NCBI GenBank assembly: GCA_964354405.1
Contig: CAYGZP010000001.1
Coordinates: 15,634-79,633, forward strand
Length of the DNA stretch: 64,000 nt
Reading direction: 5' to 3'
Origin: Candidatus Woesearchaeota archaeon
Lineage (GTDB): Archaea; Nanobdellota; Nanobdellia; Pacearchaeales; UBA284
Part shown: positions 11,793-64,000 of the stretch, piece by piece
Numbering within the stretch: the stretch's first letter is position 1
Layout: each line of letters begins with the position of its first letter
The notes under the pieces: generated by a model
Seen by the model: only the letters and a program-made list of their open reading frames with translations
The model's database searches: none
Told to the model about the DNA's origin: nothing
Made by a program: the position numbers and the translations under genes

Positions 11793-11820
11793 CTCTTTAT
11801 CTTATAAATCATATCGAAAA

Positions 11821-20046: not shown

Positions 20047-20061
20047 TTTCCTCTTTTTTTA

Positions 20062-22520: not shown

Positions 22521-23399
22521 ATGGACTTGATAATATTGAGCGACATCTTGTTGTTTTCCATAGCTTTCGCGTTCTTGATATTCGCCTCGATAACCGACAT
22601 AAAGCGGCGAGAGGTTCCAAACTGGCTTTGTTTCTCATTGATCGCGATTGCTTTCTCCATAAGAATTCTTGCTTCAGTCCTAACATCCCAATTTTCATAC
22701 TTGTTTTATGCAATAATCGCCTTCATACTTTTCTTCATTCTCGCTAATGTGCTTTATTATGCAAAATTCTTCGGCGGGGGGGATGCAAAGCTCATTATGG
22801 CATTGGCGATTGTCTTCGCGACAACTCCCTCTTTCATAATAGCATCATCTTTAGAACTTTTCCAGGAGCCATTTCTCCTAAGTTTCCTGATAAACATTTT
22901 CTTCTTGGGCTCGGTTTACAGCATTTTCTTCATAATATTCTTCGCGATAAAAAATTATAGGAGCCTCAAAACAGAAATAAAAAAAATGTGGAAAAAAAGC
23001 AAGACAATGCGGATAATCTTTCTTGTTCTTGCTATAATCTCTCTTGCATTGACATATTTCTCAACACTATTTCTTCTATTCCCTGTAATCATCTTGCTGT
23101 TCCCTCTTCTCTATATTATAGTCAAGGCAACTGAGAACTCGTGCATGATAAAACTTGTCTCTCCGCGAGAACTGACAGAAGGTGACTGGCTTGTCGGTAA
23201 AATTAAAATGGGCAAAAAAATCATCAAGCCAAGCGTCCATGGCCTAAGCTCTCAAGACATCGCAGCATTAAGAAAAGCAAACAAAAAAGTTCTGATAAAA
23301 TATGGCATCCCTTTCGTGCCAGTGTTTCTCATCGCGCTTGTAGCCACAGCATTGTTCGGCGATTTGATTGTTCTAATAATCAAGGCATTCTTCTTTTAA
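22521..23399 (+). CDS. type IV prepilin / preflagellin peptidase (A24 family, PibD/FlaK-like)
   Basis: Catalytic Asp motifs ITDIKRREVPNWL and GGGDAKL in a polytopic membrane protein; 292 aa. Confidence 0.6.
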   Translation: MDLIILSDILLFSIAFAFLIFASITDIKRREVPNWLCFSLIAIAFSIRILASVLTSQFSYLFYAIIAFILFFILANVLYYAKFFGGGDAKLIMALAIVFATTPSFIIASSLELFQEPFLLSFLINIFFLGSVYSIFFIIFFAIKNYRSLKTEIKKMWKKSKTMRIIFLVLAIISLALTYFSTLFLLFPVIILLFPLLYIIVKATENSCMIKLVSPRELTEGDWLVGKIKMGKKIIKPSVHGLSSQDIAALRKANKKVLIKYGIPFVPVFLIALVATALFGDLIVLIIKAFFF

Positions 23400-47930: not shown

Positions 47931-49067
47931 TTGTTTTTCTGTTTCATGTTCAGCTTTTTAAAGAAAAAGATAAAGGAATTCATCACAGGAACGAAGCAAG
48001 AGTTGGCAGAAGAATCAAAAGTTGAGGAAAAAGAACTTAAGCAAGAGATTAAAGAGACAGAAAAAGAAATAGAAGAAGTCAAAGAAGAGATTCAAGAGTT
48101 GAAACAGGAAGAGAAAGGAGAGCGAGATGTTGAAGAAAGAGTAGAAGAAAAGACAGAAGAAGTTGAAGAGGAGAAAGCTCTTGAGGAGAAAAAAGGCGGA
48201 TTATTCTCAAGATTGAAAAAAGTCTTTGTATCAAAAAAGCTTGGCGATGATGAGTTCAACAAGTTTTTCAATGGACTCGAGACAATCCTCATAGAGAACA
48301 ATGTTGCTCTCGAAGCCATTGATGCTCTACGAGTAAAACTCAAGCAAGAACTTGTCAACAAGGAGATTTCTCGCAAGGATTGGGAAAATAAAATTGAAAC
48401 TGCGCTCAAAAACGCAATTTCTTCATTATTGCTCGAGCCTTTTGACTTAATTTCAAAAATAAAACAATCAGAAAAGCCATTTGTAATAGTTTTTTTCGGA
48501 ATAAATGGAAGCGGCAAGACAACAACTATAGCTAAAGTCGCGCACATGCTCAAGCAAAACAAAATAACTAGTGTCTTGGCAGCCAGCGATACATTCCGAG
48601 CAGCAAGCATAGAACAGCTGGAGAAACATTCGAGCAAACTTGGGGTTGAAGTCATTAAACAAAAATACGGAGCAGACCCTGCTGCAGTTGCTTTCGATGC
48701 AATTGCTCATGCAAAATCCAAGGCAATTGATGTTGTGCTTGTGGATACGGCAGGAAGAATGCACACAAAAGCAGACTTGTTGAGAGAGATGGAAAAAATT
48801 GTCCGCGTCACCAAGCCATCATTGAAAATTTTTGTTGGCGAGGCCATAACCGGCAATGATGCTGTAGAACAGGCGCGCTCATTCAACAACACAATTGGCA
48901 TCGACGCTGTTATCTTGACAAAAGCAGATGTAGATGAGAAAGGTGGGGCCACAATAAGTGTGAGTTATATAACAAAAAAGCCTATCTTGTTCCTTGGAAT
49001 GGGCCAGGAATATAGCGACTTAAAAAAATTCGACAAGAAAGAGATTCTTAAGCAATTGTTCGGCTGA
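47931..49067 (+). CDS. ftsY: signal recognition particle receptor FtsY
   Basis: Acidic/KE-rich N-terminus, and NG domain with GINGSGKTTTIAK, DTAGR and TKAD. Confidence 0.8.
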   Translation: MFFCFMFSFLKKKIKEFITGTKQELAEESKVEEKELKQEIKETEKEIEEVKEEIQELKQEEKGERDVEERVEEKTEEVEEEKALEEKKGGLFSRLKKVFVSKKLGDDEFNKFFNGLETILIENNVALEAIDALRVKLKQELVNKEISRKDWENKIETALKNAISSLLLEPFDLISKIKQSEKPFVIVFFGINGSGKTTTIAKVAHMLKQNKITSVLAASDTFRAASIEQLEKHSSKLGVEVIKQKYGADPAAVAFDAIAHAKSKAIDVVLVDTAGRMHTKADLLREMEKIVRVTKPSLKIFVGEAITGNDAVEQARSFNNTIGIDAVILTKADVDEKGGATISVSYITKKPILFLGMGQEYSDLKKFDKKEILKQLFG

Positions 49068-52058: not shown

Positions 52059-53432
52059 ATGTTAGACAAATTAGGCGAGACACTGAAAAAAGCATTGAAT
52101 AAGATAGCCTCAAGTGTCTTTATTGACAAGAAGGTCATTGATGATATAACCAAAGAACTCCAGCGAGCGCTTCTTGAAGCAGATGTTGACACCAAGACTA
52201 CAACTGAACTCATAGAAAAGATAAGAAAGAAAGCTAATGAAAACATAAAAGGCTTGGAGAAAAAAGAACAGTTAATCAAACTTATTCATGACGAGTTAGT
52301 TGAGATTCTTGGCAAAGAAGAGCATGAGATTAAAATAGACAAAAAGAAGAAGCCGTTCAAAATAATGCTCCTCGGATTATACGGATGCGGCAAGACAACC
52401 ACTTCAGCAAAACTCGGTTTCTATTACAGCAAAAGAGGATTCAAAACCTGTTTGGTTGGCTTGGATGTTCACAGGCCCGCAGCTCCTGAACAACTCGAGC
52501 AGCTCGCGCAAAAAGCAAGACTCCCATATTTTATTGACAAACAAGAAAAGAATGCTCTGGCAATATGGAAAAAATTCGAGAGCAAGATAAAGCAACACGA
52601 TCTTGTAATCATTGATACTGCTGGAAGAGATGTTCTAAACTCCTCGCTCATCAATGAAATTAATTCTCTATACAAAGAAATCCAGCCCGACATAATCATT
52701 CTAACTCTTGCAGCTGATATTGGCAAGGCAGCCTCGAGCCAAGCACAAGGTTTCAAAAAAGCTTGCCCAATCAATGGAGTGATAGTCACAAGACTTGATG
52801 GAACAGCAAAAGGCGGCGGCGCTCTTGTTTCTTGCGCAGAGACAAACTCCCATATTTTGTTTATAGGAACAGGCGAGAAACTCCAAGATATCGAAACTTT
52901 CGACCCAAGCTCGTTTGTCTCAAGATTGTTAGGAATGGGAGACATCCGCTCGCTATTGGAAAAAGCCAAGCTCATCATAGAAGAAAAAGAACAGGCAAAA
53001 ATGAAATCGCGCTTAGAGGAGGGCAAGTTTACACTTAATGATTTGTATGACCAGATAAAAACAATGCAAAAAATGGGCCCATTAGACAAAATCGCAGACA
53101 TGATTCCAGGACTTGGGGGAGTAAAGACAAAAATGCCCGACCTGTTCAATGTTCAAGAAGCGAAGATGAAACGCTGGAAATTTGCAATAGATTCCATGAC
53201 TCTCCATGAACGCGAGAATCCCGAAACCCTCAACTCCAGCAGGATTCAAAGAATTTCCAAGGGCTCAAATGTCCCAACCAATGAAATCCGCGAGCTGATA
53301 AAACAGCACAAGATGATGAAAGAACTAGTCACTGGCTCAGCAAAAGACATGCAGGGATTAGCTTCTGGACAGATGGACAAGAAAACTCTGCAAAAGCTCG
53401 CAAAGAAATTCGGCAGAGGAATGAGGTTCTAA
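52059..53432 (+). CDS. srp54: signal recognition particle protein SRP54
   Basis: N domain; G domain with GLYGCGKTTT, DTAGR and TRLD; Met-rich M domain at the C-terminus. Confidence 0.9.
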   Translation: MLDKLGETLKKALNKIASSVFIDKKVIDDITKELQRALLEADVDTKTTTELIEKIRKKANENIKGLEKKEQLIKLIHDELVEILGKEEHEIKIDKKKKPFKIMLLGLYGCGKTTTSAKLGFYYSKRGFKTCLVGLDVHRPAAPEQLEQLAQKARLPYFIDKQEKNALAIWKKFESKIKQHDLVIIDTAGRDVLNSSLINEINSLYKEIQPDIIILTLAADIGKAASSQAQGFKKACPINGVIVTRLDGTAKGGGALVSCAETNSHILFIGTGEKLQDIETFDPSSFVSRLLGMGDIRSLLEKAKLIIEEKEQAKMKSRLEEGKFTLNDLYDQIKTMQKMGPLDKIADMIPGLGGVKTKMPDLFNVQEAKMKRWKFAIDSMTLHERENPETLNSSRIQRISKGSNVPTNEIRELIKQHKMMKELVTGSAKDMQGLASGQMDKKTLQKLAKKFGRGMRF

Positions 53433-53465: not shown

Positions 53466-53954
53466 TTATCCGCCTTTCTTAGTCAAAAGCCATGCTGCGA
53501 ATATAGTTAATCCTACAAGAAGAACTATCCCCAATATCTGCGGCTGTAGCAAGAATGCCTTGGGCTCGCCCATATACTTGTTTATTACATCTGCAAAAAC
53601 ATAAACTGCCGAAACTAGAAAAATTACAATCAAGACAATCACAATGAACCATGCAAATCCAGGCTTGAAAACTTTTTCCATAGTTTCTTTTCCCATCAAG
53701 CCGACAATCAGCCCAATGAAAAGCAATGAAACAACTAGCGCAGCAAACCACGGCGTCACAACCTTGACATATTCAATCGCGTTCGCAGAAACAAGAAATA
53801 TAATTGCGATGGCAAAACTAGTAAGGATATGGACAAACTTGTTCTCTCCAAGTAATTTTGTCTTGCCAAGCAAAGCATAAGTAACGACAAATACAAGCAA
53901 AAATCCAAACACTGGAACGAAAGTGCCTATTCCAGTCAAATCAATCTCAACCAT
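53466..53954 (-). CDS. small polytopic membrane protein, tandem paralog 1 of 3
   Basis: Shares the LLVFVVTYALLGKTKLLGE-type motif with the next two genes; 4-5 TM helices. Confidence 0.4.
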   Translation of the reverse strand: MVEIDLTGIGTFVPVFGFLLVFVVTYALLGKTKLLGENKFVHILTSFAIAIIFLVSANAIEYVKVVTPWFAALVVSLLFIGLIVGLMGKETMEKVFKPGFAWFIVIVLIVIFLVSAVYVFADVINKYMGEPKAFLLQPQILGIVLLVGLTIFAAWLLTKKGG

Positions 53955-53989
53955 TTTATTATTTTATTTTTTAATTTTTAACTTTTGAT

Positions 53990-54535
53990 TTACTGCGAAC
54001 TGATAGTGCCAAGTTTCTTTCCTTTCTCGCCGCCAACTCCAACGACAAGCGCGACAATGACAAAAGCAACTATGAACACCAATATTAAAGCAGCTGAGTT
54101 TTGCTGCATCCAGTAAAAGGCATTTGCCCCGAAAACATATGTAAAAAATCCTGATTTAGCTAAAACAACTAAAAGTAAAATGAACCCCCCAATTCCAAAA
54201 ACCCATTGCCATGTTTTTTCTTCAGGTTTAAATGCTATTCCAAGCAATATAATCATGACAAGCAATATCGCGATTCCTATTGCCAAGTTTGAGAACAGAT
54301 ACATAAAAAACACAGAAACATAAGGATTTGTTATCGCGAAAAACGCCAAAACAAGCGCAATGACAAGGTTGACTCCCCTGTTCTTGAAAATATTGATTTT
54401 TTCCAATATCGCGAAAACAAGAGTAAACACAAGTAACAAAGGCAACAAGACATCGAATATTCCGAACTGCGCCCATTGGTCTATAACAGTTCTGAAAGAA
54501 CTCATGCCCCAACCATAATCAGTCAATCCGTCCAT
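53990..54535 (-). CDS. small polytopic membrane protein, tandem paralog 2 of 3
   Basis: Motif LLPLLLVFTLVFAILEKINIFK; 181 aa. Confidence 0.4.
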   Translation of the reverse strand: MDGLTDYGWGMSSFRTVIDQWAQFGIFDVLLPLLLVFTLVFAILEKINIFKNRGVNLVIALVLAFFAITNPYVSVFFMYLFSNLAIGIAILLVMIILLGIAFKPEEKTWQWVFGIGGFILLLVVLAKSGFFTYVFGANAFYWMQQNSAALILVFIVAFVIVALVVGVGGEKGKKLGTISSQ

Positions 54536-54600
54536 TTTCCAATCCTCTTTATTATCTTCCTTAATTTATTCTAATCAAAGACCTTTTATATATTTTTCTT

Positions 54601-55086
54601 TTAACTCGAAGGTTGCTTGCCCTTCGCCGATAGCACTAGCGCGACAGCCCCGCCCAAAATCACTAAAAATACTACAACTCCGACTGTTCCTGCAGTTATG
54701 CTTCCTGTCAACTTGTCTAAAACTCCTGCAGCCCATAAAACTGCTGCAATGAAAGCCAAGCCAAAGATTATTCCTAGAGCAATCTGCAATCCCTTGACTT
54801 TATGGATATCAATAAAACCAAACACTAGAAAGTAGCCAAGTAAAATAACAAGGAACACCGCGATAAGCGGCAATAATCTTAGAGTGAATCCAACCATGCT
54901 CTGGGCCCCTATAAACAACAAGCCAATAATTATGGCTATAATCAGATTAGCATATCTCTTCTCCTTGCCCAAAAGCTCGGTTTTTTCAAGTATCGCAAAA
55001 ATAACGACAAAAACGAGCAAGAAAGGAAGTAATATATTCGATAAAAAAGGACTTGAGAGTATCCCCAAGGTTTGTGCATCACCCAT
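54601..55086 (-). CDS. small polytopic membrane protein, tandem paralog 3 of 3
   Basis: Motif LLPFLLVFVVIFAILEKTELLGK; 161 aa. Confidence 0.4.
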   Translation of the reverse strand: MGDAQTLGILSSPFLSNILLPFLLVFVVIFAILEKTELLGKEKRYANLIIAIIIGLLFIGAQSMVGFTLRLLPLIAVFLVILLGYFLVFGFIDIHKVKGLQIALGIIFGLAFIAAVLWAAGVLDKLTGSITAGTVGVVVFLVILGGAVALVLSAKGKQPSS

Positions 55087-55119
55087 TTTTTAATATGAAT
55101 TGCTTTGTTGAGTTTATGT

Positions 55120-55404
55120 TTAATCAACTGGAATGTCGTCTGCCTTTTCTTCCATAATGGGCACTGCAGCCTTGCTTATTATTAAAACCTCTCCAAAAGC
55201 CTTGACATATTGGTGGGGGATTATTAAGCCTCGTGCGCCAGATAAAACTGCAGTCAAAGTGCTGTCTTTTGCGATTCTTACCTTCCATCCGTCTATCTTA
55301 TTCTCGACGATGTTTGCTTCTTCAACAACGCCAAGGTAATCGCCGGCATCAGTAAAAATCTTCATTCCTACAACATCGCTTACTCTTAAGATCTTTAACA
55401 CCAT
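55120..55404 (-). CDS. PRC-barrel domain protein
   Basis: 94 aa; VVGMKIFTDAGDYLGVVEEANIVENKIDGWKV pattern typical of PRC barrels. Confidence 0.5.
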   Translation of the reverse strand: MVLKILRVSDVVGMKIFTDAGDYLGVVEEANIVENKIDGWKVRIAKDSTLTAVLSGARGLIIPHQYVKAFGEVLIISKAAVPIMEEKADDIPVD

Positions 55405-55541
55405 TTTTCTGTTTTATTTAAAAATTGTCGTTTAAATTTAATTTAAATGTAATAATTTTTCAAGAGGAGACAGCTTTATATACTTTTTGATGCTATTTGG
55501 AAATCTTTTTATAATCTTTTTTCCTGAGAATAAAGTCAATA

Positions 55542-57740
55542 TTGGGCGATTTTCCTGATATTTTGACAAAAAGAGGCATGGTAACGAAAGACGAAGTTAG
55601 AGATATCTTAAAAAGTTATGAAGCCAAGATAGCGCGCGAGTTGAAAGAGGAGGCTCCGAGCGATTATTCTGTTGAATACAACAAATTCAGAGAAGAAACT
55701 TTAGCTTCCTTGAATTCTTATGAGAGCGCTTGCAAAAACTTCGGCAAGATTATATCGCTAAAGCTCAATGAGAAAGACGAAGCTAAGATCAAGAGATCTA
55801 TAGAAACAGCACATCTTGAAATAGAACCAAGCCAGGCAGCTGGGTTAGCAGTCTTCGCTCTCATCGCCGGCATTTTCATAACTCTCCTCATCTCAGTCGC
55901 GATTTATCTGTTGACAGAAACTATTCCTACATTAATTTTCATGCTTTTGTTTTTTGTTTCAATCTTTATTTTCTATTATCTTAATACCATGCCGCAAAGA
56001 TTAGAGCAGAAATGGCGCTTAAAGGCCTCAAGCCAGATGGTCCCATGCATCTTGTATCTTGTGGTATATATGAGACACACAAGCAACATGGAGAGCGCTA
56101 TAAGATTCGCCTCGCAGCATCTACAGCCTCCACTCTCTCTTGATTTGAAAAAGATATTCTGGAATGTCGAGACAGCGAAATTCGCCACGATAAAAGATGC
56201 CTTAGACGCTTATCTGGAGACATGGCGCGAGTACAGCATCGAGTTTGTCGAAGCCATTCATCTTGTCGAATCCTCCCTGTACGAGCCACAAGAATCAAGA
56301 AGAATCTCAATTCTCGAGAAAGCTTTGGAAGTTATGCTCGACGGAGTTTACGAAAAAATGCTGAGATACACACATGATGTCCAATCTCCTATAACAAACA
56401 TCTACATGTTGGGCATTGTCCTGCCAACTCTTGGCCTCGCGTTATTACCTTTAGCTTCAACTTTGCTACAAGGTGCGATTCAATGGTATCATGTCGCGAT
56501 ATTATTCAACATAATTGTTCCTTTCCTTGTTTTCTACATGACTAATCAAGTGCTCAGTAAAAGGCCAGGGGGTTTCGGAGAAACCGAGCTCCTTGAGAGA
56601 AATCCCGAATACGCGAGCTACAAAGACAAGAGTCATTATTTCACAGCAGCTTTAATCGCACTTCCCTTCTTTATCATAGGAATTCTGCCGTTATTAATGC
56701 AATTTGGATTAGCAGATGCTTTAGGAATCCAATCAGATTACAGCTTCGAGCAGCTAGGCATTGGTTTCTTTGGCAATCAGACAATGTTCGACTTCAAAAC
56801 AGCTGAAAATGGAGCAACAGTCGGCCCGTTCGGCCCTGTCGCGCTGCTCCTAAGTATTTTAATTCCGTTTTCAATTGCATTATTTTTCGCGATAGCTTAC
56901 AAGTTAAAGACTCGGAAGCTCATAGAAACAAGAAACAAAACAAAAAACCTTGAGCAAGAGTTTTCGTCATCGATATTCCAATTGGGCAATAGACTTGCTG
57001 ATGGAATTCCAGCTGAAATGGCTTTCGGCCGAGTTGCAAGTTCATTGAAAGGAACACCAACAGCGGGCTTCTTTAATACAGTAAACATGAATATCCAGCA
57101 AGCAGGCATGAGCGTAGAACAGGCGATATTCAATCGCTCCCGCGGCGCGATTAATTTTTATCCAAGCGAGCTAGTCAAGACATCGATGCAGATTCTGATT
57201 GAATCAGTAAAGAAAGGTTTACAAGTTGCCGCTCGAGCATTAATGGCAATAAGCGATTATGTTAAGAACATCCACAAAGTCAACGAGAGATTGAAAGACC
57301 TGCTCGCAGAAATCACAAGCGGAATGAAAAGCAACATGACTTTCCTTGCTCCTCTCCTCGCTGCGATAGTGGTGGGATTGGCATCAATGATAACCATGAT
57401 TCTCTCAAGATTACAGTTGATGCTAACAGTGGGCGATCTCTCTGGCACAGAAATGATTGGAGGCATGGGCATCAGTGCGATAACCCAGATGTTCGATGTA
57501 GTAAAAATGATTCCGCCCTTCTGGCTCCAAGTTATCGTAGGAATTTACTTAATAGAAATAATCTTCATTCTTACTCAAACCCTAGTTACAATAGAATCTG
57601 GCGAAGACAGATTGAGCGAGAAAGCAGAAATAAGCAAAATGTTAATGACAGGCATGACTCTTTACACACTCGCGGCATTCATATCAGTAATCGCCCTAGC
57701 CGCATTGGCAGCGGTCGCAGTCTCGGGGATTGTTGTTTAA
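55542..57740 (+). CDS. polytopic membrane protein, candidate FlaJ/TadC-like (T2SS-F-like) pilus platform protein
   Basis: 732 aa with two groups of TM helices separated by cytoplasmic helical domains (AIRFASQHL...; second after residue 450). Size, topology and location beside prepilin-like genes fit an archaeal pilus platform. Sequence-level assignment is tentative. Confidence 0.4.
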   Translation: MGDFPDILTKRGMVTKDEVRDILKSYEAKIARELKEEAPSDYSVEYNKFREETLASLNSYESACKNFGKIISLKLNEKDEAKIKRSIETAHLEIEPSQAAGLAVFALIAGIFITLLISVAIYLLTETIPTLIFMLLFFVSIFIFYYLNTMPQRLEQKWRLKASSQMVPCILYLVVYMRHTSNMESAIRFASQHLQPPLSLDLKKIFWNVETAKFATIKDALDAYLETWREYSIEFVEAIHLVESSLYEPQESRRISILEKALEVMLDGVYEKMLRYTHDVQSPITNIYMLGIVLPTLGLALLPLASTLLQGAIQWYHVAILFNIIVPFLVFYMTNQVLSKRPGGFGETELLERNPEYASYKDKSHYFTAALIALPFFIIGILPLLMQFGLADALGIQSDYSFEQLGIGFFGNQTMFDFKTAENGATVGPFGPVALLLSILIPFSIALFFAIAYKLKTRKLIETRNKTKNLEQEFSSSIFQLGNRLADGIPAEMAFGRVASSLKGTPTAGFFNTVNMNIQQAGMSVEQAIFNRSRGAINFYPSELVKTSMQILIESVKKGLQVAARALMAISDYVKNIHKVNERLKDLLAEITSGMKSNMTFLAPLLAAIVVGLASMITMILSRLQLMLTVGDLSGTEMIGGMGISAITQMFDVVKMIPPFWLQVIVGIYLIEIIFILTQTLVTIESGEDRLSEKAEISKMLMTGMTLYTLAAFISVIALAALAAVAVSGIVV

Positions 57741-57779
57741 TTTTACCCCCTTTAGTCAATGAATTACAAATAATAATTT

Positions 57780-58886
57780 TTATTTTGAATTCCTAAACGC
57801 ATCTTCTAAATTAATAAATTCCCCCCTATCCTTATTATAGGGCATTACTCTTAGAATATTTTGGTTATCATCAACATAAACTAAATAAGTATCTCTATCT
57901 CCCATCCTTAGGTCTTCATTTAAAGGCACTATACAAGTTATTTTAAAACAATTATTGCCCATTAGAACCACCTCTTCTAATTTTATTTTGTAAGAGTCAG
58001 TATAATCAATATTAGTATTGGGATTCTCATACTGTGTAATCTCAAAAGAAGTTGGTGTTAATCTTCTATAAGATATTGAGTCTAATCCCTCTGGAAGCGG
58101 GCACTGAGCTTTGAGATAATTCAAGATATATTCTAGAGACTTTGCAAAAATCTCTTCTTTCCACCTTTCTCCTAAATTTCCTTCTAAATTTTCCGTAGTT
58201 TGCTTTTTTATTTCATAATATCCTTCGCGCAAGCCCAAGTTCTCAAGACTTGCTAAAGGTGTAGAACTTTTGCCATGGCAAAGCCAAACATTGTCTTCTA
58301 TATATCTGGCAATTTTTCTTCCATTTCCATAAATATCGTTTTCGCCAACTGCAAAAACCATTTTCCTTGAAGCTGCAAACTCGCGAGCAGCGCCGACAGT
58401 TATTTCATCAAAAGGTGGGCTGTTAGGATAAATTCGCTTAAGTTTGTTGGGATTAAGTCTCTCATACATTCCTGCCTTGTAATTGCCATTAACGTCTCTG
58501 CCTTCATAATCTGAGGTCCATATTTTTCTACCATTCACATCTTTTATTAAAAAATCTCCAGAAGGATCTATGGCTTTTTTATCGCTCAGCGCTCTGAAAG
58601 AAGCATTGACAACAACATAATATCGTTTAAGCTCTCTTCCGGGATCATCCTTTGGGGGAATTGGATCAATAAGAGAATCTAAATAAACTTTATTAATTTT
58701 TACAGCAATATCCTCCATTATTCTCCAATAACTGCCGTCGTATCCAAACTCCCAAGAATCCCAATATTTCCAATCAACGTTATCTTTTACTCTTTCCATT
58801 TCTTCATATTCTTCTGCTTCTTGAGCTTTAATTAAAGCAGGCGTAAGAAATAGACTAGAAATTAAAAGCCAAGTTTTCCATCCCAT
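57780..58886 (-). CDS. secreted hypothetical protein
   Basis: Sec-type signal MGWKTWLLISSLFLTPALIKAQ; W/Y-rich; 368 aa. Confidence 0.4.
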   Translation of the reverse strand: MGWKTWLLISSLFLTPALIKAQEAEEYEEMERVKDNVDWKYWDSWEFGYDGSYWRIMEDIAVKINKVYLDSLIDPIPPKDDPGRELKRYYVVVNASFRALSDKKAIDPSGDFLIKDVNGRKIWTSDYEGRDVNGNYKAGMYERLNPNKLKRIYPNSPPFDEITVGAAREFAASRKMVFAVGENDIYGNGRKIARYIEDNVWLCHGKSSTPLASLENLGLREGYYEIKKQTTENLEGNLGERWKEEIFAKSLEYILNYLKAQCPLPEGLDSISYRRLTPTSFEITQYENPNTNIDYTDSYKIKLEEVVLMGNNCFKITCIVPLNEDLRMGDRDTYLVYVDDNQNILRVMPYNKDRGEFINLEDAFRNSK

Positions 58887-58927
58887 ATATTAAATAAATT
58901 TTTAAAGTTAAAAAACATTGTGGTTGT

Positions 58928-59107
58928 ATGCGATATAAAGGGGGTAAAAGCAACAAGAAAGGAAAAAAGGGCGTTGAGCGCGAAGTCATAGCATGGGTCA
59001 TAGCATTATTGGTTCTTGCGTTCGCAGTAATCTTAATATTGATTCTTAACAAACAGGGCATAAACGTCATAGATAAAATAAAAGAGTTTTTGCGCTTCGG
59101 AAGATAA
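58928..59107 (+). CDS. small prepilin-like protein (class III signal peptide); not in ORF track
   Basis: Manual translation: MRYKGGKSNKKGKKG/VEREVIAWVIALLVLAFAVILILILNKQGINVIDKIKEFLRFGR, 59 aa. Confidence 0.4.
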   Translation: MRYKGGKSNKKGKKGVEREVIAWVIALLVLAFAVILILILNKQGINVIDKIKEFLRFGR

Positions 59108-59141
59108 GCTAAAAGATAAAGATAAAAAAAAGAGTTAAAAA

Positions 59142-59774
59142 ATGTCATTTGATATATGGGTTATCATAAAGATGATTCTTGGTTTAGTTTTGGTTCTCGG
59201 AGTTGCCTATCTCCTATTCATCGGCCCTGGCAAGCAGCTTTTGATTAGTCTAGGGGTTCTCGGGGGCATGGCAAAAGAAGCTCAAGAATTCAGTGATAAC
59301 AATTTTAATGCTCTATCACAAAAAATTTCATCGTGTCAGGCAATGAAAGATTCAAACTGTTTATGCGAGATTTTTCCTTCGTGGCCAGCAACTTTTGCGA
59401 AAGATTCTGTACTTGTAATCAAAGCGACTGGAAAAGATACATTATTAGAATGGAAATATAATAATAAAGTTTACAGAACACAGATTATAAGCAACTTGTT
59501 CCTGAGCGCAAAAGAAATCGAGACAAAACAGGATATTACTTTCTCATCAACTAAAAACTTGAACTGGAAAAGCGAACCCCCAACATTTGAGCAAGAGGGT
59601 TTGGGAAGCAAGGGTTTCTTAGGTTCTCCCATAGGAAAAAAAGAGTACAAAGTCGTGAGCAGCTCAGTTTACAAAACAGAAAATGGTTTATATCTGTTAA
59701 TTTCAAGAGAAACTCAAAACAAATTATCTGAGCTAGAGCCAATGCTGAGCGCTATAAAGAAATGCAGTTCATAA
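59142..59774 (+). CDS. membrane-anchored hypothetical protein in pilus-like locus
   Basis: N-terminal hydrophobic anchor IWVIIKMILGLVLVLGVAYLLF; 210 aa. Confidence 0.35.
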   Translation: MSFDIWVIIKMILGLVLVLGVAYLLFIGPGKQLLISLGVLGGMAKEAQEFSDNNFNALSQKISSCQAMKDSNCLCEIFPSWPATFAKDSVLVIKATGKDTLLEWKYNNKVYRTQIISNLFLSAKEIETKQDITFSSTKNLNWKSEPPTFEQEGLGSKGFLGSPIGKKEYKVVSSSVYKTENGLYLLISRETQNKLSELEPMLSAIKKCSS

Positions 59775-59838
59775 AAGAAAGTTTTAAAAACAACTCGCGC
59801 TTTAAATTAAATAAATAAAACAGGAAAAAAGAGGGAAA

Positions 59839-60216
59839 ATGAATAAGAAAGCTGTTGAGATGAATGTGAACACAATAATTATAGTGATTCTTGCGATACT
59901 TGTTCTAGTGATTTTGGCTTTATACTTTACAGGAGGTATGACTAATCTTTGGCAAAAGATAACACCAATAGCTCCAAGTTATGATGTCGGCGATATCACA
60001 AGAGCAAAACAGTTCTGTGCGACTTTATGTTTGAGCAACGACAAAATTTCTTATTGTAACTATGTTGCGGCATTGCCAAAGAAAGATGCGCAAAACAAAA
60101 CAGTAGGGACAGATAATAAGCATTGCTGGGAATCTCCTATAAAAGCTTACCAAGAAGCTGAATGTAAAAATGTTGGCTTCGACGACCCAGAATTTTGTAC
60201 AGCTCCGGCAGAATAA
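59839..60216 (+). CDS. prepilin-like protein (class III signal peptide)
   Basis: MNKKA/VEMNVNTIIIVILAILVLVILALYF; Cys-containing globular domain; 125 aa. Confidence 0.5.
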   Translation: MNKKAVEMNVNTIIIVILAILVLVILALYFTGGMTNLWQKITPIAPSYDVGDITRAKQFCATLCLSNDKISYCNYVAALPKKDAQNKTVGTDNKHCWESPIKAYQEAECKNVGFDDPEFCTAPAE

Positions 60217-60246
60217 GCTTAAGCAGTAAACTCAACAAACATTAAA

Positions 60247-60429
60247 ATGCACAACAAGAAAGGCTTAGAGCTTCCTATCAATACAGTTATTATTATAATT
60301 CTTGCACTAATCACGCTAGTAATTCTTTTGTTGATTTTCTCCAGCTCGATGAGGCAAGTAGTCGGGGATTTGATGACAAAGATAAAAGGCGCTTTCGGAT
60401 TCTGGAACGCAACTCAAGTAACCCCGTAA
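60247..60429 (+). CDS. minor prepilin-like protein (class III signal peptide)
   Basis: MHNKKG/LELPINTVIIIILALITLVILLLIF; 60 aa. Confidence 0.5.
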   Translation: MHNKKGLELPINTVIIIILALITLVILLLIFSSSMRQVVGDLMTKIKGAFGFWNATQVTP

Positions 60430-60479
60430 TCAAATCAATCAAAACAAAATTTTAAATATCACAATTTAGTTCTTTATTT

Positions 60480-61571
60480 ATGGATAAAAGAGGCATTCTC
60501 TTAAAGCAGATAATAGAAATCTTAATTGCTGTTGCGATAGTCGTGATAATAATCATAGCAGCCCAAAGATTCTTCGCAACCTATTTCGGAAATCAAAAAG
60601 ATATGCAGGCAAAAGGGACTCTAGATAAAATAACCCAAATCTTAGGAAATTTGACAGAAGCTGAAACAAAGAGGTATGTGTTACAAAGTCCAGGAGGATG
60701 GTACATTGTAGCTTTCGATGCCCAGCATAATGAAAACAATAAATTCGCAAAGCCACAGAAATATGTTAATCAAAATTTGTTATGCATTTGCGACAAGAAA
60801 TGTTCAATCTGCCAGACAATAGCTCTGCCATTGATGCATAACGAGACTCTTGCATTTGTTAAGATAGGGCTTTCGGATATATGGCTAACAAATGCTAAAA
60901 CATATTACAATATTAGTAAAGTCAAGGCAACTGTTTCATCAACGCTCACAGAACAGGAAAAAACAGAAATTTCATTAAAAACCACAACAACAAATCAAGC
61001 AATAACAAACAATAATTATCAGCCAGCCATCGATTCAGCTGTAAGCAAATATTATCCAGAAGTGAAAGAATATATTGCAAATCAACAAGAATTCGCAAAA
61101 ATTATCAAAGCCATAATCGCAATAGAATCCCAAGGTGTATGGAACGCTGTAGGTAGAGATGGGGAAGTTGGCTTGATGCAGTTGATGCCGCAGACAGCCG
61201 ATGCTCTCGGTTTGAAAATTTATGATCCTGATAACAAATTCACAGGACAGGGATGGAATTTTGTAGACTCGCAATACAGCCAAACCAGTTATTACAACTC
61301 TCTCAAAACTCTTGCATCCTCAAAAACCAAGGCTGAGCTCATAGTGATAGACGAGCGCTTCGACGAAACAAAAAATATAGACGCAGCAACAAAACATTTA
61401 GTCTCATACATCAAACAATTCCAAGATTACGAACTTGCTATCATAGCATTCAACGCCGGAGGCGGCGGGGTAACAAACAACTGTAGGCCCCAAGTCATAA
61501 CAGCCTGCAATGTAAATTTTGACGGTTACAAATATTTCCAGAAAGTAAAAACAGCAATGGAGAGCGCATAA
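60480..61571 (+). CDS. prepilin-like N-terminus fused to a family-1 lytic transglycosylase (SLT) domain
   Basis: MDKRG/ILLKQIIEILIAVAIVVIIIIAA, then IIAIESQGVWNAVGRDGEVGLMQLMPQTA (catalytic E-S and GLMQ motifs) and IIAFNAGGGG (AYNAG-like). Confidence 0.6.
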   Translation: MDKRGILLKQIIEILIAVAIVVIIIIAAQRFFATYFGNQKDMQAKGTLDKITQILGNLTEAETKRYVLQSPGGWYIVAFDAQHNENNKFAKPQKYVNQNLLCICDKKCSICQTIALPLMHNETLAFVKIGLSDIWLTNAKTYYNISKVKATVSSTLTEQEKTEISLKTTTTNQAITNNNYQPAIDSAVSKYYPEVKEYIANQQEFAKIIKAIIAIESQGVWNAVGRDGEVGLMQLMPQTADALGLKIYDPDNKFTGQGWNFVDSQYSQTSYYNSLKTLASSKTKAELIVIDERFDETKNIDAATKHLVSYIKQFQDYELAIIAFNAGGGGVTNNCRPQVITACNVNFDGYKYFQKVKTAMESA

Positions 61572-61678
61572 AATGGAAACTGAAATGCTTGTAAGAATCA
61601 TTATAATCGTAGTGCTTTTTGCAACTATAGGCGCGGGAATTTTCTTTTTGCTGAAGCGCTTTGGTGTTGTTTAAATCT

Positions 61679-62023
61679 TTACCATTCTTTTATTTTTTTA
61701 ATTTGAGTTATTCTGCCTTTATCGTAATCAATCATAATTTCATAAGCGCCTTTCTCCTTTTCTTTTTGCATAATCAAAAGATGCTTTCCTTTTCCTTCAC
61801 TTTCGCTTTGCTTTTCAAAATGATAATCAATCTTTTGTCCGTCGTCATAAAAAGTTGACATTTCATAAGGATAGTTAGAATATCTAAAGTTTTTAGCACT
61901 ATCCTCCAATTTGCTAACAAGAGAAGGAGAAATATCCTTACTTCCACCACAGCCAATCAAAAAAAGCAATCCAACACCGGCCAAAAGACTTTTTAATTTA
62001 TTTTCAATTGAATTAGTTGTCAT
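61679..62023 (-). CDS. putative lipoprotein
   Basis: Probable start at internal Met (MTTNSIENKLKSLLAGVGLLFLIGC, lipobox LIGC); the ORF-track N-terminal extension up to 62197 is unlikely to be real. Confidence 0.35.
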   Translation of the reverse strand: MTTNSIENKLKSLLAGVGLLFLIGCGGSKDISPSLVSKLEDSAKNFRYSNYPYEMSTFYDDGQKIDYHFEKQSESEGKGKHLLIMQKEKEKGAYEIMIDYDKGRITQIKKIKEW

Positions 62024-62075
62024 GCACTTAATTAAAAAGGAAAGGTTTATTAAATTTATTGTTATTAAAAATACA

Positions 62076-62981
62076 ATGAAAAATAAAAGAGGCATGACAG
62101 TGCAATCCATGCTCATTGGTATTATTATCACAATTTTGTCAGCTGCGATAATTTTTCTTTTTTTGAGAGCATTTCCATTCACGAGCACAGTTGACAAAGA
62201 AGCCTGTCATAATTCTGTTATTCTAAGAAATAATGCGCTGCTCCGAGGCGAAGGCATTTTGCCTGAAACAATCCCCCTCAATTGCAAAACTCAAGATATT
62301 AAAATCTCCACATCGAATGAAGAAGTCATCAAGCGCGATATAGCCAATTCAATGTATGACTGCTGGTGGATGATGGGCGAAGGCAAGATGGACTTTTTTT
62401 CTGAAAGTGCTTGGCGTGATTGGGGGGTTCCTGGCGCCGGGACAGCAAAATCAAGCTGTGTCATCTGTTCAACAATCACTTTTGAAGAAAACGCTCAAGG
62501 CCATCAAGTTGATTTGTTAAGTTATCTCGAGCAGACAAGGGTTCCATCAAAAAATTTAACATATCTTGAATATCTTAGCCAAGAAGAAAAAGCAGAGTTA
62601 CCAACGGAAATTAAGGTAGAAAAGTTAGACACAAATCAAAATTATGCAATAGTTTTTATGTCAATAAAAGGGGCAGATATAGTGGGAGAAATTAAAAATT
62701 ATATAGGATTTGGCGGCACCACGGCCTTTTTCGTTCCTCGTCTTTTAGCTAAAGGCCTAACTAAAATAGGAGTAAAGGGAGCGACAAAACTAATTCCTGT
62801 TGTTGGTTGGATCATAGCTATAGCAGAAGCTGCCGGTCACACGATTACCTTCTTTACTTCAGCGCACGCAGCCGCAATGCACTGTGATGGTGAGCGCGAA
62901 GGTTGTAATGCTATAATTTTAACCCCGCTAACAGCATCAGACATCGCAGCCCAATGCCAAAACATAGAAAGCATTCCTTAA
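62076..62981 (+). CDS. prepilin-like protein (class III signal peptide), about 300 aa
   Basis: Probable start MKNKRG/MTVQSMLIGIIITILSAAIIFLFL, internal to the ORF-track call 61911..62981; Cys-rich globular part. Confidence 0.45.
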   Translation: MKNKRGMTVQSMLIGIIITILSAAIIFLFLRAFPFTSTVDKEACHNSVILRNNALLRGEGILPETIPLNCKTQDIKISTSNEEVIKRDIANSMYDCWWMMGEGKMDFFSESAWRDWGVPGAGTAKSSCVICSTITFEENAQGHQVDLLSYLEQTRVPSKNLTYLEYLSQEEKAELPTEIKVEKLDTNQNYAIVFMSIKGADIVGEIKNYIGFGGTTAFFVPRLLAKGLTKIGVKGATKLIPVVGWIIAIAEAAGHTITFFTSAHAAAMHCDGEREGCNAIILTPLTASDIAAQCQNIESIP

Positions 62982-62997
62982 ATTTTAATTCTATAAT

Positions 62998-63813
62998 TTA
63001 ATCTGATCCAACTTTTTTGATATTTGTTATCTTTTGTTTCCAGAAGTCTATTGTAAGTTTATAATAATCCCTTCGATCCTGGATTTTTACCATTAAACCA
63101 TAATTATGTACTCCCGTTTTTATATCTCCCCCTTCCTCTAATATATAGAAAACATTTTGTTTCGAAGATTGATCATAAATTTCTCCTGTAAGTCTGTGAA
63201 CAAAAAAATACATCCCATCTTCTAAGTCAGAGATTGTTGTTTCTTTAACTGCTTTTTCTTCTATTTCCTTTCTAACAAGGGGAGGAATTCCGCCGGGATT
63301 AATCGAAGAAAACAAATTCCCTATATTCTTCTTTACATTAGAATAAGTTTCATTAACAACATCTCCGATATTTTTTCCTTTTGGTTTGTTAGTTTGTTCT
63401 TCTGTTGGTTGTTCTTGCGATATTTTGCCCCTTCCTATTGGAACAAGTTTTATATTTTTATCAGCAATCACAAGAGTTTCTCCTTTAAAAAAATAAGAAG
63501 AAGAAGATTCAATAGACCATATGAAAGCTCCTGGGTTCAATTTGGGATCAAGATAATAATTCTTCGATCCCCACTCGTCTGAAAACATCTTATTTTTTTC
63601 TTCATACACATAATACTCCATATATTGACCATTAGTTTTTCTTAGATGATTATTTTTAGAAAACTCCCAAATGTTTCCATTATTTACATCTCTCCATTTA
63701 TGCGCCTGCATTCTCTTCAAATCTCCTTGTTCAGCATTTGCAATTTTTGGCACGCCGAGTAAGAAATATAACAAGCCTCCAAATATCAAAAAATTCCTTA
63801 ATCCTTTTCCCAT
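62998..63813 (-). CDS. secreted hypothetical protein
   Basis: N-terminal signal MGKGLRNFLIFGGLLYFLLGVPKIANA; 271 aa. Confidence 0.4.
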   Translation of the reverse strand: MGKGLRNFLIFGGLLYFLLGVPKIANAEQGDLKRMQAHKWRDVNNGNIWEFSKNNHLRKTNGQYMEYYVYEEKNKMFSDEWGSKNYYLDPKLNPGAFIWSIESSSSYFFKGETLVIADKNIKLVPIGRGKISQEQPTEEQTNKPKGKNIGDVVNETYSNVKKNIGNLFSSINPGGIPPLVRKEIEEKAVKETTISDLEDGMYFFVHRLTGEIYDQSSKQNVFYILEEGGDIKTGVHNYGLMVKIQDRRDYYKLTIDFWKQKITNIKKVGSD

Positions 63814-63874
63814 TTTTAACCCTAATCACTAAATTTATTAATACCCTTTCATTTAAAAAAATATCTGTACTAAG

Positions 63875-64000
63875 ATGATAAAGAATAAAAGAGGCTTCGA
63901 GATAGGATGGGAATTTTTCTTCAACTTGCTTTTTGTTGTAGCCATAATCATAACAGTTACTGTATGGATTAATTCTCAATCTTCCGGAGGAGCAATGAAA
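63875..64000 (+). CDS. prepilin-like protein, 5' partial (runs off window)
   Basis: MIKNKRG/FEIGWEFFFNLLFVVAIIITVTVWI. Confidence 0.4.
   Translation, partial: MIKNKRGFEIGWEFFFNLLFVVAIIITVTVWINSQSSGGAMK

What the first reader, a model, noticed from the sequence alone, without database searches (positions are those of the whole stretch)
53466..64000. Archaeal type-IV-pilus-like locus packed with class III signal peptide genes
At least six genes (58928, 59839, 60247, 60480, 62076, 63875) begin with a short basic N-terminus, (K/R)(K/R)(G/A), then a 20-25-residue hydrophobic helix. That is the PibD/FlaK substrate pattern. They sit next to a 732-aa polytopic protein whose topology fits FlaJ/TadC, a PRC-barrel protein, three tandem small membrane paralogs and secreted proteins. 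A matching A24 prepilin peptidase lies at 22521..23399. No FlaI/TadA ATPase is in the window, so the machine is either incomplete here or continues past 64 kb. The gene order and the enzymatic pilin (next finding) do not match characterised archaella or Aap/Ups pili.
Basis: partly seen in the sequence, partly recalled or inferred. Interest (0 to 1): 0.8.

Follow-up and report, generated by a model that had tools for sequence, protein, structure and literature searches.

The report
Pacearchaeal type IV pilus locus
This stretch of a tiny DPANN (Pacearchaeota) archaeal genome encodes most of a type IV pilus-like surface machine, with a highly diverged membrane platform and about ten pilin-like subunits, one fused to a bacterial-cell-wall-cutting enzyme; it is a lineage-specific variant of a known machine, not a new kind.

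Summary
Six genes at 58928-64000 start with (K/R)(K/R)(G/A) followed by a strongly hydrophobic helix, and four more lie just past the window. The motif is conserved in orthologues from dozens of species.

The 732-aa protein gets no direct Pfam T2SSF hit. Three results still mark it as a diverged FlaJ/TadC/PilC-type platform:
- Distant full-length family members do pass Pfam T2SSF.
- In 60 of 82 related loci it lies within 10 kb of a 760-aa T2SSE ATPase, in 24 of them directly downstream of it.

The A24 peptidase at 22521-23399 has both catalytic motifs. In relatives its orthologue sits inside the cluster.

The ATPase is absent from the window. It appears to be on the same 420,182-bp contig, and by synteny with the nearest relative it should start about 6.6 kb past the window end.

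The PRC-barrel gene most resembles CdpB cell-division proteins. With the three membrane paralogues it forms a separate operon, so its role in the machine is unproven. The opposite-strand secreted-protein genes are lineage-specific insertions. The SLT-pilin fusion occurs only in the window's closest relatives.

Verdict: a real Tad/Epd-like type IV filament system, a new variant of a known kind.

The parts
55542..57740 (+). Platform protein of the type IV filament machine (diverged T2SSF/FlaJ/TadC/PilC family). About 9 TM helices and two cytoplasmic helical domains (about 160-285 and 460-600). The true start is probably the ATG at 55578 (720 aa).
58928..59107 (+). 59-aa class-III-signal protein with no globular domain (mature about 44 aa, conserved C-terminal LRFGR). 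A Flp-like short pilin or a platform-associated subunit.
   Evidence: Motif KKG|VEREV plus helix. Orthologues in 35 loci by tblastn; 23 N-termini recovered, all with K/R-G/A. They usually lie right next to the platform gene.
59142..59774 (+). 210-aa protein with an N-terminal hydrophobic anchor and no K/R-G/A motif. Accessory or minor subunit of unknown role.
   Evidence: Sequence. Orthologues at the same position in 12 close loci. Only 34 nt after the previous gene.
59839..60216 (+). 125-aa pilin-like protein, a candidate major pilin. It has a very conserved mature N-terminus (VEMNVNTIIIVILAILVLVILALYFTGGM) and a small Cys-rich head.
   Evidence: 31 orthologous N-termini all carry [KR][KR][GA] followed by x-E/G-hydrophobic. 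No PDB sequence match.
60247..60429 (+). 60-aa head-less pilin, a paralogue of the 125-aa gene. Flp/EpdE-like candidate filament subunit.
   Evidence: Its N-terminus parallels that of the 125-aa protein. Weak Pfam Flp1_like hit, E 6e-4, 19.6 bits, below the 33.5-bit cutoff. Orthologues.
60480..61571 (+). 363-aa class-III-signal protein. It has a conserved pilin-like N-domain (about 1-160) fused to a C-terminal SLT lytic transglycosylase domain. SLT signature motifs: ES at residues 216-217 (IES starts at 215), GLMQ at 231, FNAG at 324.
   Evidence: Pfam SLT E 6.7e-18. Motif positions. The N-domain is conserved in 25 loci. The SLT domain is present only in L004, L006, L007 and L008 by tblastn and in L086 by its Pfam annotation, plus the window.
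62076..62981 (+). 301-aa class-III-signal protein, the most widely conserved pilin-like component. N-terminal helix plus an alpha/beta head with no recognisable fold.
63875..64000 (+). Start of a 115-aa class-III-signal gene. Three more (157, 143, 266 aa) follow just beyond the window end.
   Evidence: L001. Orthologues.
22521..23399 (+). A24 prepilin/preflagellin-type peptidase, the processing enzyme for the class III signals. It lies about 32 kb from the cluster in this lineage.
   Evidence: Pfam Peptidase_A24 E 3e-15. NCBIfam FlaK_Arch E 4.5e-12, below cutoff. Both catalytic motifs present, D26 in TDIKRREVPN and GGGD at 84-87. Its best tblastn matches lie just after the pilin genes in 45 of 82 related loci. 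A Pfam A24 gene sits at that position in L062.
55120..55404 (-). 94-aa PRC-barrel protein. It is adjacent to the machine, but membership is unproven. It most resembles CdpB-type archaeal cell-division proteins.
   Evidence: Pfam PRC E 1.3e-4. PDB 8onw/8qzo E 2e-8; 8QZO is A. fulgidus CdpB2 according to PMC13488343. In relatives it heads an operon with the three membrane paralogues.
53466..55086 (-). Three tandem paralogous small polytopic membrane proteins (161, 181, 162 aa) of unknown function. They are co-oriented with the PRC gene. A link to the pilus machine is possible but not shown.
   Evidence: Shared N-terminal motif, pairwise E about 5e-6. No family or PDB match. Found within 7 kb of the ATPase in 32-40 of 60 loci.
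57780..58886 (-). 368-aa Sec-signal protein on the opposite strand. A lineage-specific insertion, probably not part of the machine. The same applies to the 113-aa lipoprotein at 61679-62020 (-) and the 271-aa Sec-signal protein at 62998-63813 (-).
   Evidence: tblastn finds relatives in only 2, 0 and 0 of 82 loci. The lipoprotein gene call is in L088.

Best explanation
The region 55.5-64 kb, continuing about 2.1 kb past the window end, is the platform-plus-subunit half of a type IV filament (TFF) machine. This machine is present in hundreds of Pacearchaeota/Woesearchaeota (GTDB Nanoarchaeota) genomes.

Proposed mechanism:
1. About ten membrane-inserted precursors carry class III signal peptides. 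The A24 aspartyl peptidase encoded at 22.5 kb cleaves them after the (K/R)(K/R)(G/A) motif.
2. The processed subunits have hydrophobic N-terminal helices. The 732-aa T2SSF-type platform extracts them from the membrane and polymerises them. A hexameric 763-aa T2SSE ATPase drives this; it is on the same contig, predicted about 6.6 kb beyond the window.
3. The head-less 59/60-aa proteins and/or the 125-aa protein form the shaft. The larger subunits (301 aa, the 363-aa SLT fusion and others) act as minor or tip subunits. They would give the filament adhesive activity and, in this sublineage, peptidoglycan-cutting activity towards bacterial partner cells.

Shown: the presence, conservation and synteny of the four core components; the platform fold; the catalytic motifs. 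Inferred: cleavage, filament formation, which subunit is the major one, and the role in host contact.
For: - Class III motifs are clustered. They are conserved across orthologues of all nine families although leader length varies.
- Platform by transitive homology: family members that match the profile end to end at E below 1e-80 hit Pfam T2SSF. P0431 scores 32.8 bits and P0419 30.4 bits against a gathering cutoff of 25.2. Two show two T2SSF stretches, and 8 of 10 have E<0.1.
- Synteny in the canonical relative L062: T2SSE ATPase (Pfam E 3e-13), then platform, then pilin-like genes, then A24 peptidase. An ATPase is within 10 kb in 60 of 82 loci and the A24 in 45 of 82.
- Nearest relative (87% identical platform): same gene order as the window, with the ATPase 4.6 kb after the last pilin-like gene.
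- Same contig: the window's proteins and ATPase P0126 are each recorded on an NCBI contig of exactly 420,182 bp. P0126 is 88% identical to the relative's ATPase.
- ATPase relatives: closest solved structures are A. fulgidus GspE (4e-25) and CpaF of the Tad pilus (2e-21), ahead of FlaI (5e-12).
- A24 catalytic D and GGGD motifs are present.
- Genes are tightly spaced, with 30-64 nt gaps between the first five.
Against: - No direct sequence model recognises the 732-aa protein as T2SSF. No internal duplication is detectable by hhalign, though the alignment is shallow (Neff 1.8).
- None of the pilin-like proteins passes any pilin family model. The best is Flp1_like, below cutoff.
- The best-conserved subunit has no recognisable pilin head fold.
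- In this genome the ATPase and peptidase are unlinked from the cluster. The ATPase's position on the contig was not read directly.
- There is no expression, processing or filament evidence for any Pacearchaeote.
Confidence: 0.8

Rival explanations
1. The same ATPase/platform/peptidase core does not build a long pilus. Instead it works as a bindosome-like or pseudopilus-like display or secretion device. It would anchor functional class-III-signal proteins (SLT enzyme, lectin-like heads) at the cell surface.
For: - There are many (about 10) class III proteins with heterogeneous heads, including an enzyme and a Laminin_G_3 lectin-like head in L062.
- The ATPase also matches NCBIfam BasE weakly (E 1.3e-15).
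- A 2026 preprint proposes functionalised TFF machineries carrying class-III-signal binding proteins (10.64898/2026.04.22.720090).
Against: - The BasE score is 57 bits against a cutoff of 1000, and the FlaI and TadA models score higher.
- No substrate-binding-protein domains were found in the cluster.
- Two head-less Flp-like subunits and a strongly conserved 125-aa pilin are what a true filament needs.
Confidence: 0.15
2. This rival concerns one part of the finding. The PRC-barrel gene and the three membrane paralogues are not pilus components. They are a separate housekeeping operon, possibly CdpB-type cell division or envelope related. They stay next to the pilus genes only because gene order in these tiny genomes is conserved.
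For: - The PRC protein's best solved relatives are CdpB cell-division proteins (E 2e-8; identity of 8QZO).
- PRC-barrel proteins occur in 509 of 524 archaeal genomes and act in division (10.1101/2023.03.28.534520).
- The block forms its own operon, separated from the ATPase by two opposite-strand genes.
- RPA, an unrelated gene, is equally persistent at the other end of the cluster (40 loci).
- In the window's lineage the block is inverted relative to the platform gene and separated from the ATPase.
Against: - The block remains within 7 kb of the ATPase in 32-40 of 60 loci through several rearrangements. SRP54 is seen as a neighbour in only 11 loci.
- No function is known for the three paralogues.
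Confidence: 0.6
3. The N-termini are ordinary uncleaved signal anchors or Sec signals, the 732-aa protein is an unrelated polytopic membrane protein, and the clustering is coincidental.
For: - No pilin or T2SSF model hits the window proteins directly.
- One cluster gene (59142) lacks the motif.
Against: - The platform fold and its transitive T2SSF homology.
- Adjacency to a T2SSE ATPase and an A24 peptidase across dozens of species.
- The K/R-G/A motif keeps an invariant position relative to the helix although leader length varies.
- Enrichment p of 1.5e-4 or less.
Confidence: 0.03
4. The locus encodes an archaellum, a rotary swimming organelle.
For: The ATPase's top NCBIfam hit by E-value is the FlaI model (8.8e-34). 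JGI names some homologues FlaI.
Against: - The FlaI score is 117 bits against a cutoff of 550.
- Solved FlaI is a weaker match than GspE and CpaF.
- No archaellin, FlaF/G or FlaH/C/D/E/X family hit appears in the window cluster or the canonical locus.
- The ATPase carries a roughly 295-residue N-terminal region with no match in the shorter solved chains, including FlaI.
Confidence: 0.02

Closest known systems
Archaeal Epd pilus (Methanococcus maripaludis; 'System 1' of archaeal TFFs) and its bacterial derivative, the Tad/Flp pilus
   Same: - The ATPase is closest to archaeal GspE and CpaF/TadA.
- A multigene cluster of about 11 genes with many pilin-like genes.
- Head-less short pilins of about 45-55 mature residues, with a weak Flp1_like hit.
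- A dedicated A24 peptidase encoded inside the cluster in most relatives.
- The description of System 1 is taken from 10.64898/2026.04.22.720090.
   Different: - One fused platform gene of about 720 aa with two T2SSF-like halves, instead of two split platform genes (EpdJ/K, TadB/C).
- The platform is too diverged for a direct Pfam hit.
- The ATPase is about 760 aa, with a roughly 295-residue N-terminal region that has no match in solved structures.
- In the window's lineage the ATPase and peptidase are displaced.
- One subunit carries an SLT fusion.
FlaJ/ArlJ, PilC, GspF (T2SSF platform proteins, Pfam PF00482)
   Same: - Encoded next to the T2SSE ATPase in relatives.
- Distant family members pass PF00482.
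   Different: - The window protein and its 19 closest aligned homologues give no PF00482 hit at all.
- The family profile reaches only 1,240 cluster representatives, so it does not connect by sequence to the broad T2SSF superfamily.
- It is unusually well conserved, with median 56% identity across 82 loci from different species-level genomes.
Sulfolobus Aap and Ups pili and the archaellum
   Same: The same four-part logic: class III signal peptidase, ATPase, platform and pilins.
   Different: - No archaellin, FlaF/G or FlaH family hits.
- FlaI is a weaker match than GspE and CpaF.
- Gene order and subunit number differ.
- AapX and UpsX were not specifically tested.
Large extracellular SLT-domain proteins of Pacearchaeota/Woesearchaeota (fam00969, Castelle et al. 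2021, PMC8204110)
   Same: An SLT (murein lytic transglycosylase) domain in a Pacearchaeote that presumably makes no murein. It was read in that paper as a tool against bacterial cell walls.
   Different: Here the SLT domain is on a 363-aa protein with a class III signal peptide and a conserved minor-pilin-like N-domain, inside the pilus gene cluster. It is restricted to the window's closest relatives. The described proteins are up to 3,000 aa.

Membership tests
Type IV filament (TFF) superfamily core machinery | Secretion ATPase of the T2SSE family (PF00437) | tested here: met
   Not in the window. P0126 (763 aa) is recorded on an NCBI contig of the same 420,182-bp length as the window's proteins. 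It is 88% identical to P0135, which carries PF00437 in a syntenic relative. Walker A GTRSSGKT is present. Its position on the contig is inferred, not read.
Type IV filament (TFF) superfamily core machinery | Polytopic platform protein with a T2SSF fold, partnered with the ATPase | tested here: met
   [not shown]
Pfam T2SSF (PF00482) by direct sequence model | Score above the gathering threshold (25.2 bits) on the protein itself | tested here: not met
   No T2SSF hit at E<=10 for the window protein or any of 19 close homologues. No PDB sequence hit for the protein or its profile.
Type IV filament (TFF) superfamily core machinery | A24 aspartyl prepilin peptidase with two catalytic Asp motifs | tested here: met
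   Pfam E 3e-15. D26 and GGGD motifs present. The orthologue lies within the cluster in relatives.
Type IV filament (TFF) superfamily core machinery | Subunits with class III signal peptides (short basic leader, G/A at -1, hydrophobic helix) | tested here: met
   Six in the window plus four beyond it. The motif is conserved in orthologues.
Type IV filament (TFF) superfamily core machinery | Cleavage of the leader by the peptidase and assembly into a filament | not testable with these tools
   This needs N-terminal proteomics, a heterologous cleavage assay, or cryo-ET.
Archaellum | Archaellins plus ArlF/ArlG stator proteins and ArlH; ATPase scoring as FlaI | tested here: not met
   No such Pfam or NCBIfam hits in the cluster or the canonical locus. 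The FlaI model scores 117 bits against a cutoff of 550.
Epd/Tad-like ('System 1') pili | Head-less short major pilin | tested here: inconclusive
   The 59- and 60-aa class III proteins lack a head domain. The Flp1_like hit (E 6e-4, 19.6 bits) is below the 33.5-bit cutoff. Which subunit is the major one is unknown.
Epd/Tad-like ('System 1') pili | Two separate platform genes (EpdJ/EpdK, TadB/TadC) | tested here: not met
   A single gene of about 720 aa in all 82 loci. Two T2SSF stretches lie within one protein in P0419 and P0436.
Epd/Tad-like ('System 1') pili | ATPase of the TadA/CpaF/archaeal GspE clade | tested here: inconclusive
   Best PDB matches are afGspE 4e-25 and CpaF 2e-21, ahead of FlaI 5e-12. 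The TadA family model gives 1.2e-32 but is below its cutoff. No phylogeny was made.
Bindosome (Bas) system | BasE-type ATPase and class-III-signal substrate-binding proteins | tested here: not met
   BasE scores 57 bits against a cutoff of 1000. No solute-binding domains in the cluster.
Family 1 lytic transglycosylase (SLT, PF01464) | SLT domain with ES, GLMQ and AYNxG-type motifs | tested here: met
   Pfam E 6.7e-18, 64.8 bits. ES at residues 216-217 (IES starts at 215), GLMQ at 231 and FNAG at 324. Activity was not tested.
CdpB-type PRC-barrel cell-division proteins | Single PRC-barrel domain similar to CdpB1/CdpB2 | tested here: met
   Pfam PRC 22.3 bits against a cutoff of 21.2. PDB 8onw/8qzo E 2e-8. 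8QZO is AfCdpB2.
CdpB-type PRC-barrel cell-division proteins | Interaction with SepF and localisation to the division ring | not testable with these tools
   This needs localisation or interaction experiments.

The most novel reading that the evidence does not exclude
The machine is the host-attachment and host-breaching organelle of Pacearchaeota. It would be a type IV filament that, in this sublineage, carries an active peptidoglycan lytic transglycosylase as a filament subunit. It would act together with a 2,536-aa surface protein bearing an M23 endopeptidase domain. Together they would let an archaeon tether to a bacterial partner and locally open its cell wall, a form of cross-domain episymbiosis or predation. 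The PRC-barrel protein, the three membrane paralogues and the two coiled-coil proteins next to the ATPase would then be previously unrecognised accessory parts of this machine.
Probability: 0.2. Interest if true: 0.85.

Novelty: new variant of a known kind. Interest (0 to 1): 0.55.

Why it matters
Pacearchaeota are uncultured, metabolically minimal archaea thought to live attached to other cells. How they attach, and to whom, is unknown.

- At least one cryo-TEM study used pili to call ultra-small cells CPR bacteria. Its stated reason was that type IV pilus components are missing from DPANN genomes (10.1101/2020.05.14.094862). That same study found Pacearchaeota to be the DPANN lineage most strongly retained with larger cells.
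- A complete TFF gene set is present in at least 563 stretches of species-representative genomes. It is probably overlooked because its platform escapes the standard Pfam and NCBIfam models, and NCBI mostly names it 'hypothetical protein'. This weakens the stated assumption.
- The locus gives a concrete candidate for the attachment device.
- A cell-wall-cutting enzyme on a pilin-like subunit, plus an M23 peptidase on a neighbouring giant protein, points to bacterial rather than archaeal partners.
- The family alignment made here could be turned into a model for finding this platform in surveys of archaeal TFF systems.

Tried and rejected
- Direct family and structure-sequence searches of the 732-aa protein and its profile found nothing: Pfam, NCBIfam, PDB phmmer and hmmsearch.
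- hhalign of the two halves of the platform alignment showed no internal repeat. The alignment was too shallow (Neff 1.8).
- Foldseek against afdb50 was unavailable.
- PDB sequence searches with a membrane paralogue and with the 125-aa pilin found nothing.
- I could not read the window's own contig beyond 64 kb plus 3.6 kb. The NCBI record is not in the gene-position index, and only short Logan contigs were found. The ATPase position is therefore inferred from the nearest relative.
- The coiled-coil pair next to the ATPase gave only noise-level Pfam hits.
- The archaellum and bindosome readings were considered and rejected on family scores and missing components.
- Makarova et al. 2016 (PMC4858521) contains no mention of DPANN, Pacearchaeota or Woesearchaeota in its text.

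Full report
ORGANISM AND SETTING. The window is archaeal. It encodes ribosomal protein S3Ae, Gins51, eIF2-alpha, a GAN/Cdc45-like DHH protein, SRP54 and FtsY. It has about 37% G+C. The 732-aa protein's nearest relatives (57-87% identity) come from MAGs labelled Candidatus Pacearchaeota. Related loci come from genomes labelled Pacearchaeota, Woesearchaeota or Nanoarchaeota. The window's own proteins are recorded on an NCBI contig of 420,182 bp.

THE OBSERVATION. All six named ORFs exist. Each starts with a short basic leader ending in (K/R)(K/R)(G/A), followed by a helix of mean Kyte-Doolittle hydropathy 3.0-3.7 over 18 residues. I scanned every ATG-started ORF of at least 45 aa in the window with the same rule. 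The five complete cluster genes were recovered, along with only one other convincing case, the 618-aa protein at 40977-42833. The remaining four hits were internal TM helices of ordinary membrane proteins. Enrichment in the cluster gives Fisher p between 6e-6 and 1.5e-4.

The cluster continues past the window. A 4.5-kb contig identical over the shared genes (L001) shows the truncated gene is 115 aa. It is followed by three more class-III-type genes (157, 143, 266 aa) and then replication protein A. So there are ten class-III-type genes plus one anchor-only gene (59142-59774). They are tightly packed, with gaps of 30-64 nt between the first five. Two opposite-strand genes interrupt the run.

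CONSERVATION OF THE SIGNAL. I recovered the N-termini of orthologues of all nine families from up to 64 related loci. In almost all of them, [KR][KR][GA] sits immediately before the hydrophobic helix, while the leader in front varies from 3 to about 20 residues. For the 125-aa and 60-aa families the residues after the putative cut are also conserved (x-E/G-hydrophobic, then T/N-T-[IV]-I-[IV]-[IV]-I-L-A). This is the expected behaviour of a processed class III signal. It is not expected of a random signal anchor.

THE 732-AA PROTEIN. Direct searches fail:
- No Pfam T2SSF hit for it or for 19 homologues.
- Nothing in NCBIfam.
- Nothing among PDB sequences, with the single sequence or with a profile.

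An exhaustive profile search found 1,240 cluster representatives. Ten of the most distant full-length members in the listing match the profile over nearly its whole length at E of 1e-81 to 1e-93. I scanned these ten against Pfam:
- Eight hit T2SSF with E<0.1.
- Two exceed the gathering score (P0431 at 32.8 bits, P0419 at 30.4 bits, against 25.2).
- Two show two T2SSF stretches.

The protein has about nine hydrophobic segments and two cytoplasmic helical domains. It is therefore a diverged but genuine member of the T2SSF platform superfamily. The likely start is the ATG at 55578, which gives 720 aa like the homologues.

SYNTENY. The family alignment retrieved 80 loci from a one-genome-per-species collection, and at least 563 stretches encode a relative. 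I mapped the window's proteins and a T2SSE ATPase onto 82 loci.
- An ATPase lies within 10 kb in 60 loci: immediately upstream on the same strand in 24, further upstream in 12, convergent downstream in 19, and elsewhere in 5.
- The A24 peptidase orthologue lies just after the pilin-like genes in 45 loci.
- The commonest order (for example L062 and L066) is: PRC barrel, two or three membrane paralogues, two opposite-strand coiled-coil genes, a 760-aa ATPase (Pfam T2SSE E 3e-13), the platform, the pilin-like genes, the A24 peptidase, then RPA.
- Ten loci with good flanks show no ATPase. Nine of them are the window's nearest relatives, where the PRC/paralogue block is inverted and the ATPase and peptidase have moved.

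In the closest relative with a long contig (platform 87% identical), gene order matches the window gene for gene. There the ATPase lies on the same strand 4.6 kb after the last pilin-like gene. It follows RPA, RadA, a PDDEXK nuclease and the two coiled-coil genes.

WHERE THE WINDOW'S ATPASE IS. Neither the window nor L001 contains an ATPase homologue. However, an ATPase (P0126, 763 aa) is recorded on an NCBI contig of exactly 420,182 bp, the same length as the contig carrying the window's platform, peptidase, SLT-pilin and 301-aa proteins. P0126 has an intact Walker A motif and is 88% identical to the relative's ATPase. L001 shows RPA starting at window-equivalent position 66,018. Adding the 4,598 nt seen in the relative predicts the ATPase start near 70.6 kb. 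This position is an inference; I could not read that DNA.

WHICH KIND OF TFF. The ATPase's best solved relatives are A. fulgidus GspE (4e-25) and the Tad-pilus ATPase CpaF (2e-21). FlaI is weaker (5e-12). All NCBIfam models score far below their cutoffs. No archaellin, FlaF/G/H or solute-binding domains occur in the cluster. The head-less 59- and 60-aa subunits, the weak Flp1_like hit, the many minor pilin-like genes and the in-cluster peptidase in relatives resemble the Epd/'System 1' pili described in a 2026 survey (10.64898/2026.04.22.720090). That system has two split platform genes, whereas this one has a single fused gene. The survey's text does not mention Pacearchaeota, PRC proteins or transglycosylases.

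THE PERIPHERAL GENES.
- PRC barrel. Its best solved relatives are the A. fulgidus CdpB cell-division proteins (E 2e-8; identification). PRC-barrel proteins are near-universal in archaea and act in division.
- The PRC gene and the three paralogues form their own operon. Its persistence near the ATPase (32-40 of 60 loci) is suggestive. But RPA is just as persistent at the other end of the cluster, so synteny alone does not make these genes part of the machine.
- The three paralogues share only an N-terminal helix motif and match nothing known.
- The opposite-strand Sec-signal and lipoprotein genes have relatives in 2, 0 and 0 of 82 loci. They are insertions.

THE SLT SUBUNIT. The 363-aa protein joins a pilin-like N-domain conserved in 25 loci to an SLT domain. 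That domain is found only in the window, L004, L006, L007 and L008 and L086. It is therefore a recent fusion in the window's sublineage. The SLT domain scores E 6.7e-18 and keeps the ES, GLMQ and FNAG signature motifs. Large SLT proteins were already noted in Pacearchaeota and read as tools against bacterial walls (PMC8204110). An SLT domain on a class-III-signal protein inside the pilus cluster is a different arrangement from the large proteins described in that paper.

VERDICT. The locus is the platform-and-subunit part of a Tad/Epd-like type IV filament machine that is widespread in Pacearchaeota-type DPANN archaea. In this lineage it is split into three pieces: the peptidase at 22.5 kb, the platform and pilins at 55.5-66 kb, and the ATPase at about 70.6 kb. 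It is a new variant of a known kind.

Interest is moderate (0.55). The core logic is standard. Three things raise its value: the platform is invisible to standard annotation, at least one study assumed DPANN lack type IV pili, and the enzyme-bearing subunit offers a testable lead on how, and on whom, these archaea live.

Noticed in passing
window 33353-40963 (-) and 40977-42833 (-): A 2,536-aa protein carries a Peptidase_M23 (peptidoglycan endopeptidase) domain at residues about 1902-2007 (E 6e-23). The adjacent 618-aa protein has the only other convincing class-III-like N-terminus in the window (MQKKA|QVTLFIIIAIVIVAFALL). This is a second bacterial-wall-targeting activity, possibly also processed by the A24 peptidase.
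   Followed up: partly
window 12822-18629 (-): A 1,935-aa protein with NosD/right-handed beta-helix repeats and an N-terminal hydrophobic anchor. It is probably a large surface adhesin or enzyme.
   Followed up: partly
L066 6300-7374 (-); L087 8567-9854 (-); L005, L012, L016 and most other loci: Two coiled-coil proteins (about 130 aa and about 220-300 aa, the larger with a small N-terminal helical domain) always sit head-to-head with the T2SSE ATPase gene. They move with it when it relocates. They have no family match. They may be scaffold or regulatory partners of the ATPase. They are not in the window.
   Followed up: partly
proteins P0137, P0201, P0207, P0217, P0220 (homologues of the ATPase): Some ATPase homologues are about 1,280 aa and carry intein/LAGLIDADG domains (PF14890, PF14528). 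They are intein-containing versions of this pilus ATPase.
   Followed up: no
window 55542 vs 55578: The 732-aa ORF starts at a TTG. Homologues are 718-726 aa and align from about residue 10, and an in-frame ATG at 55578 would give 720 aa. The deposited 732-aa annotation may be 12 codons too long.
   Followed up: partly
window 4001-12000: G+C drops to 0.27-0.30, against 0.36-0.42 elsewhere, and GC skew turns positive at 6-10 kb. This may be a foreign or differently oriented gene block.
   Followed up: no
L062 12236-13288: In a more distant relative, the gene right after the platform encodes a 350-aa protein with a Laminin_G_3 (concanavalin-like lectin) domain (E 1.4e-19). The subunit heads in this cluster are swapped between lineages: lectin there, SLT here.
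   Followed up: no
window 47931-49067 (+) and 52059-53432 (+): FtsY and SRP54, the membrane-protein targeting pair, flank an ABC/FtsX (MacB-like) transporter just upstream of the cluster. This order is kept in the window's close relatives (L004, L086) but not in distant ones.
   Followed up: partly
window 19126-20994 (-): Two tandem genes of about 306-310 aa next to the A24 peptidase region start with signal peptides ending in SAQQGC and SGQQGC, which look like lipoboxes. They have no family hits.
   Followed up: no
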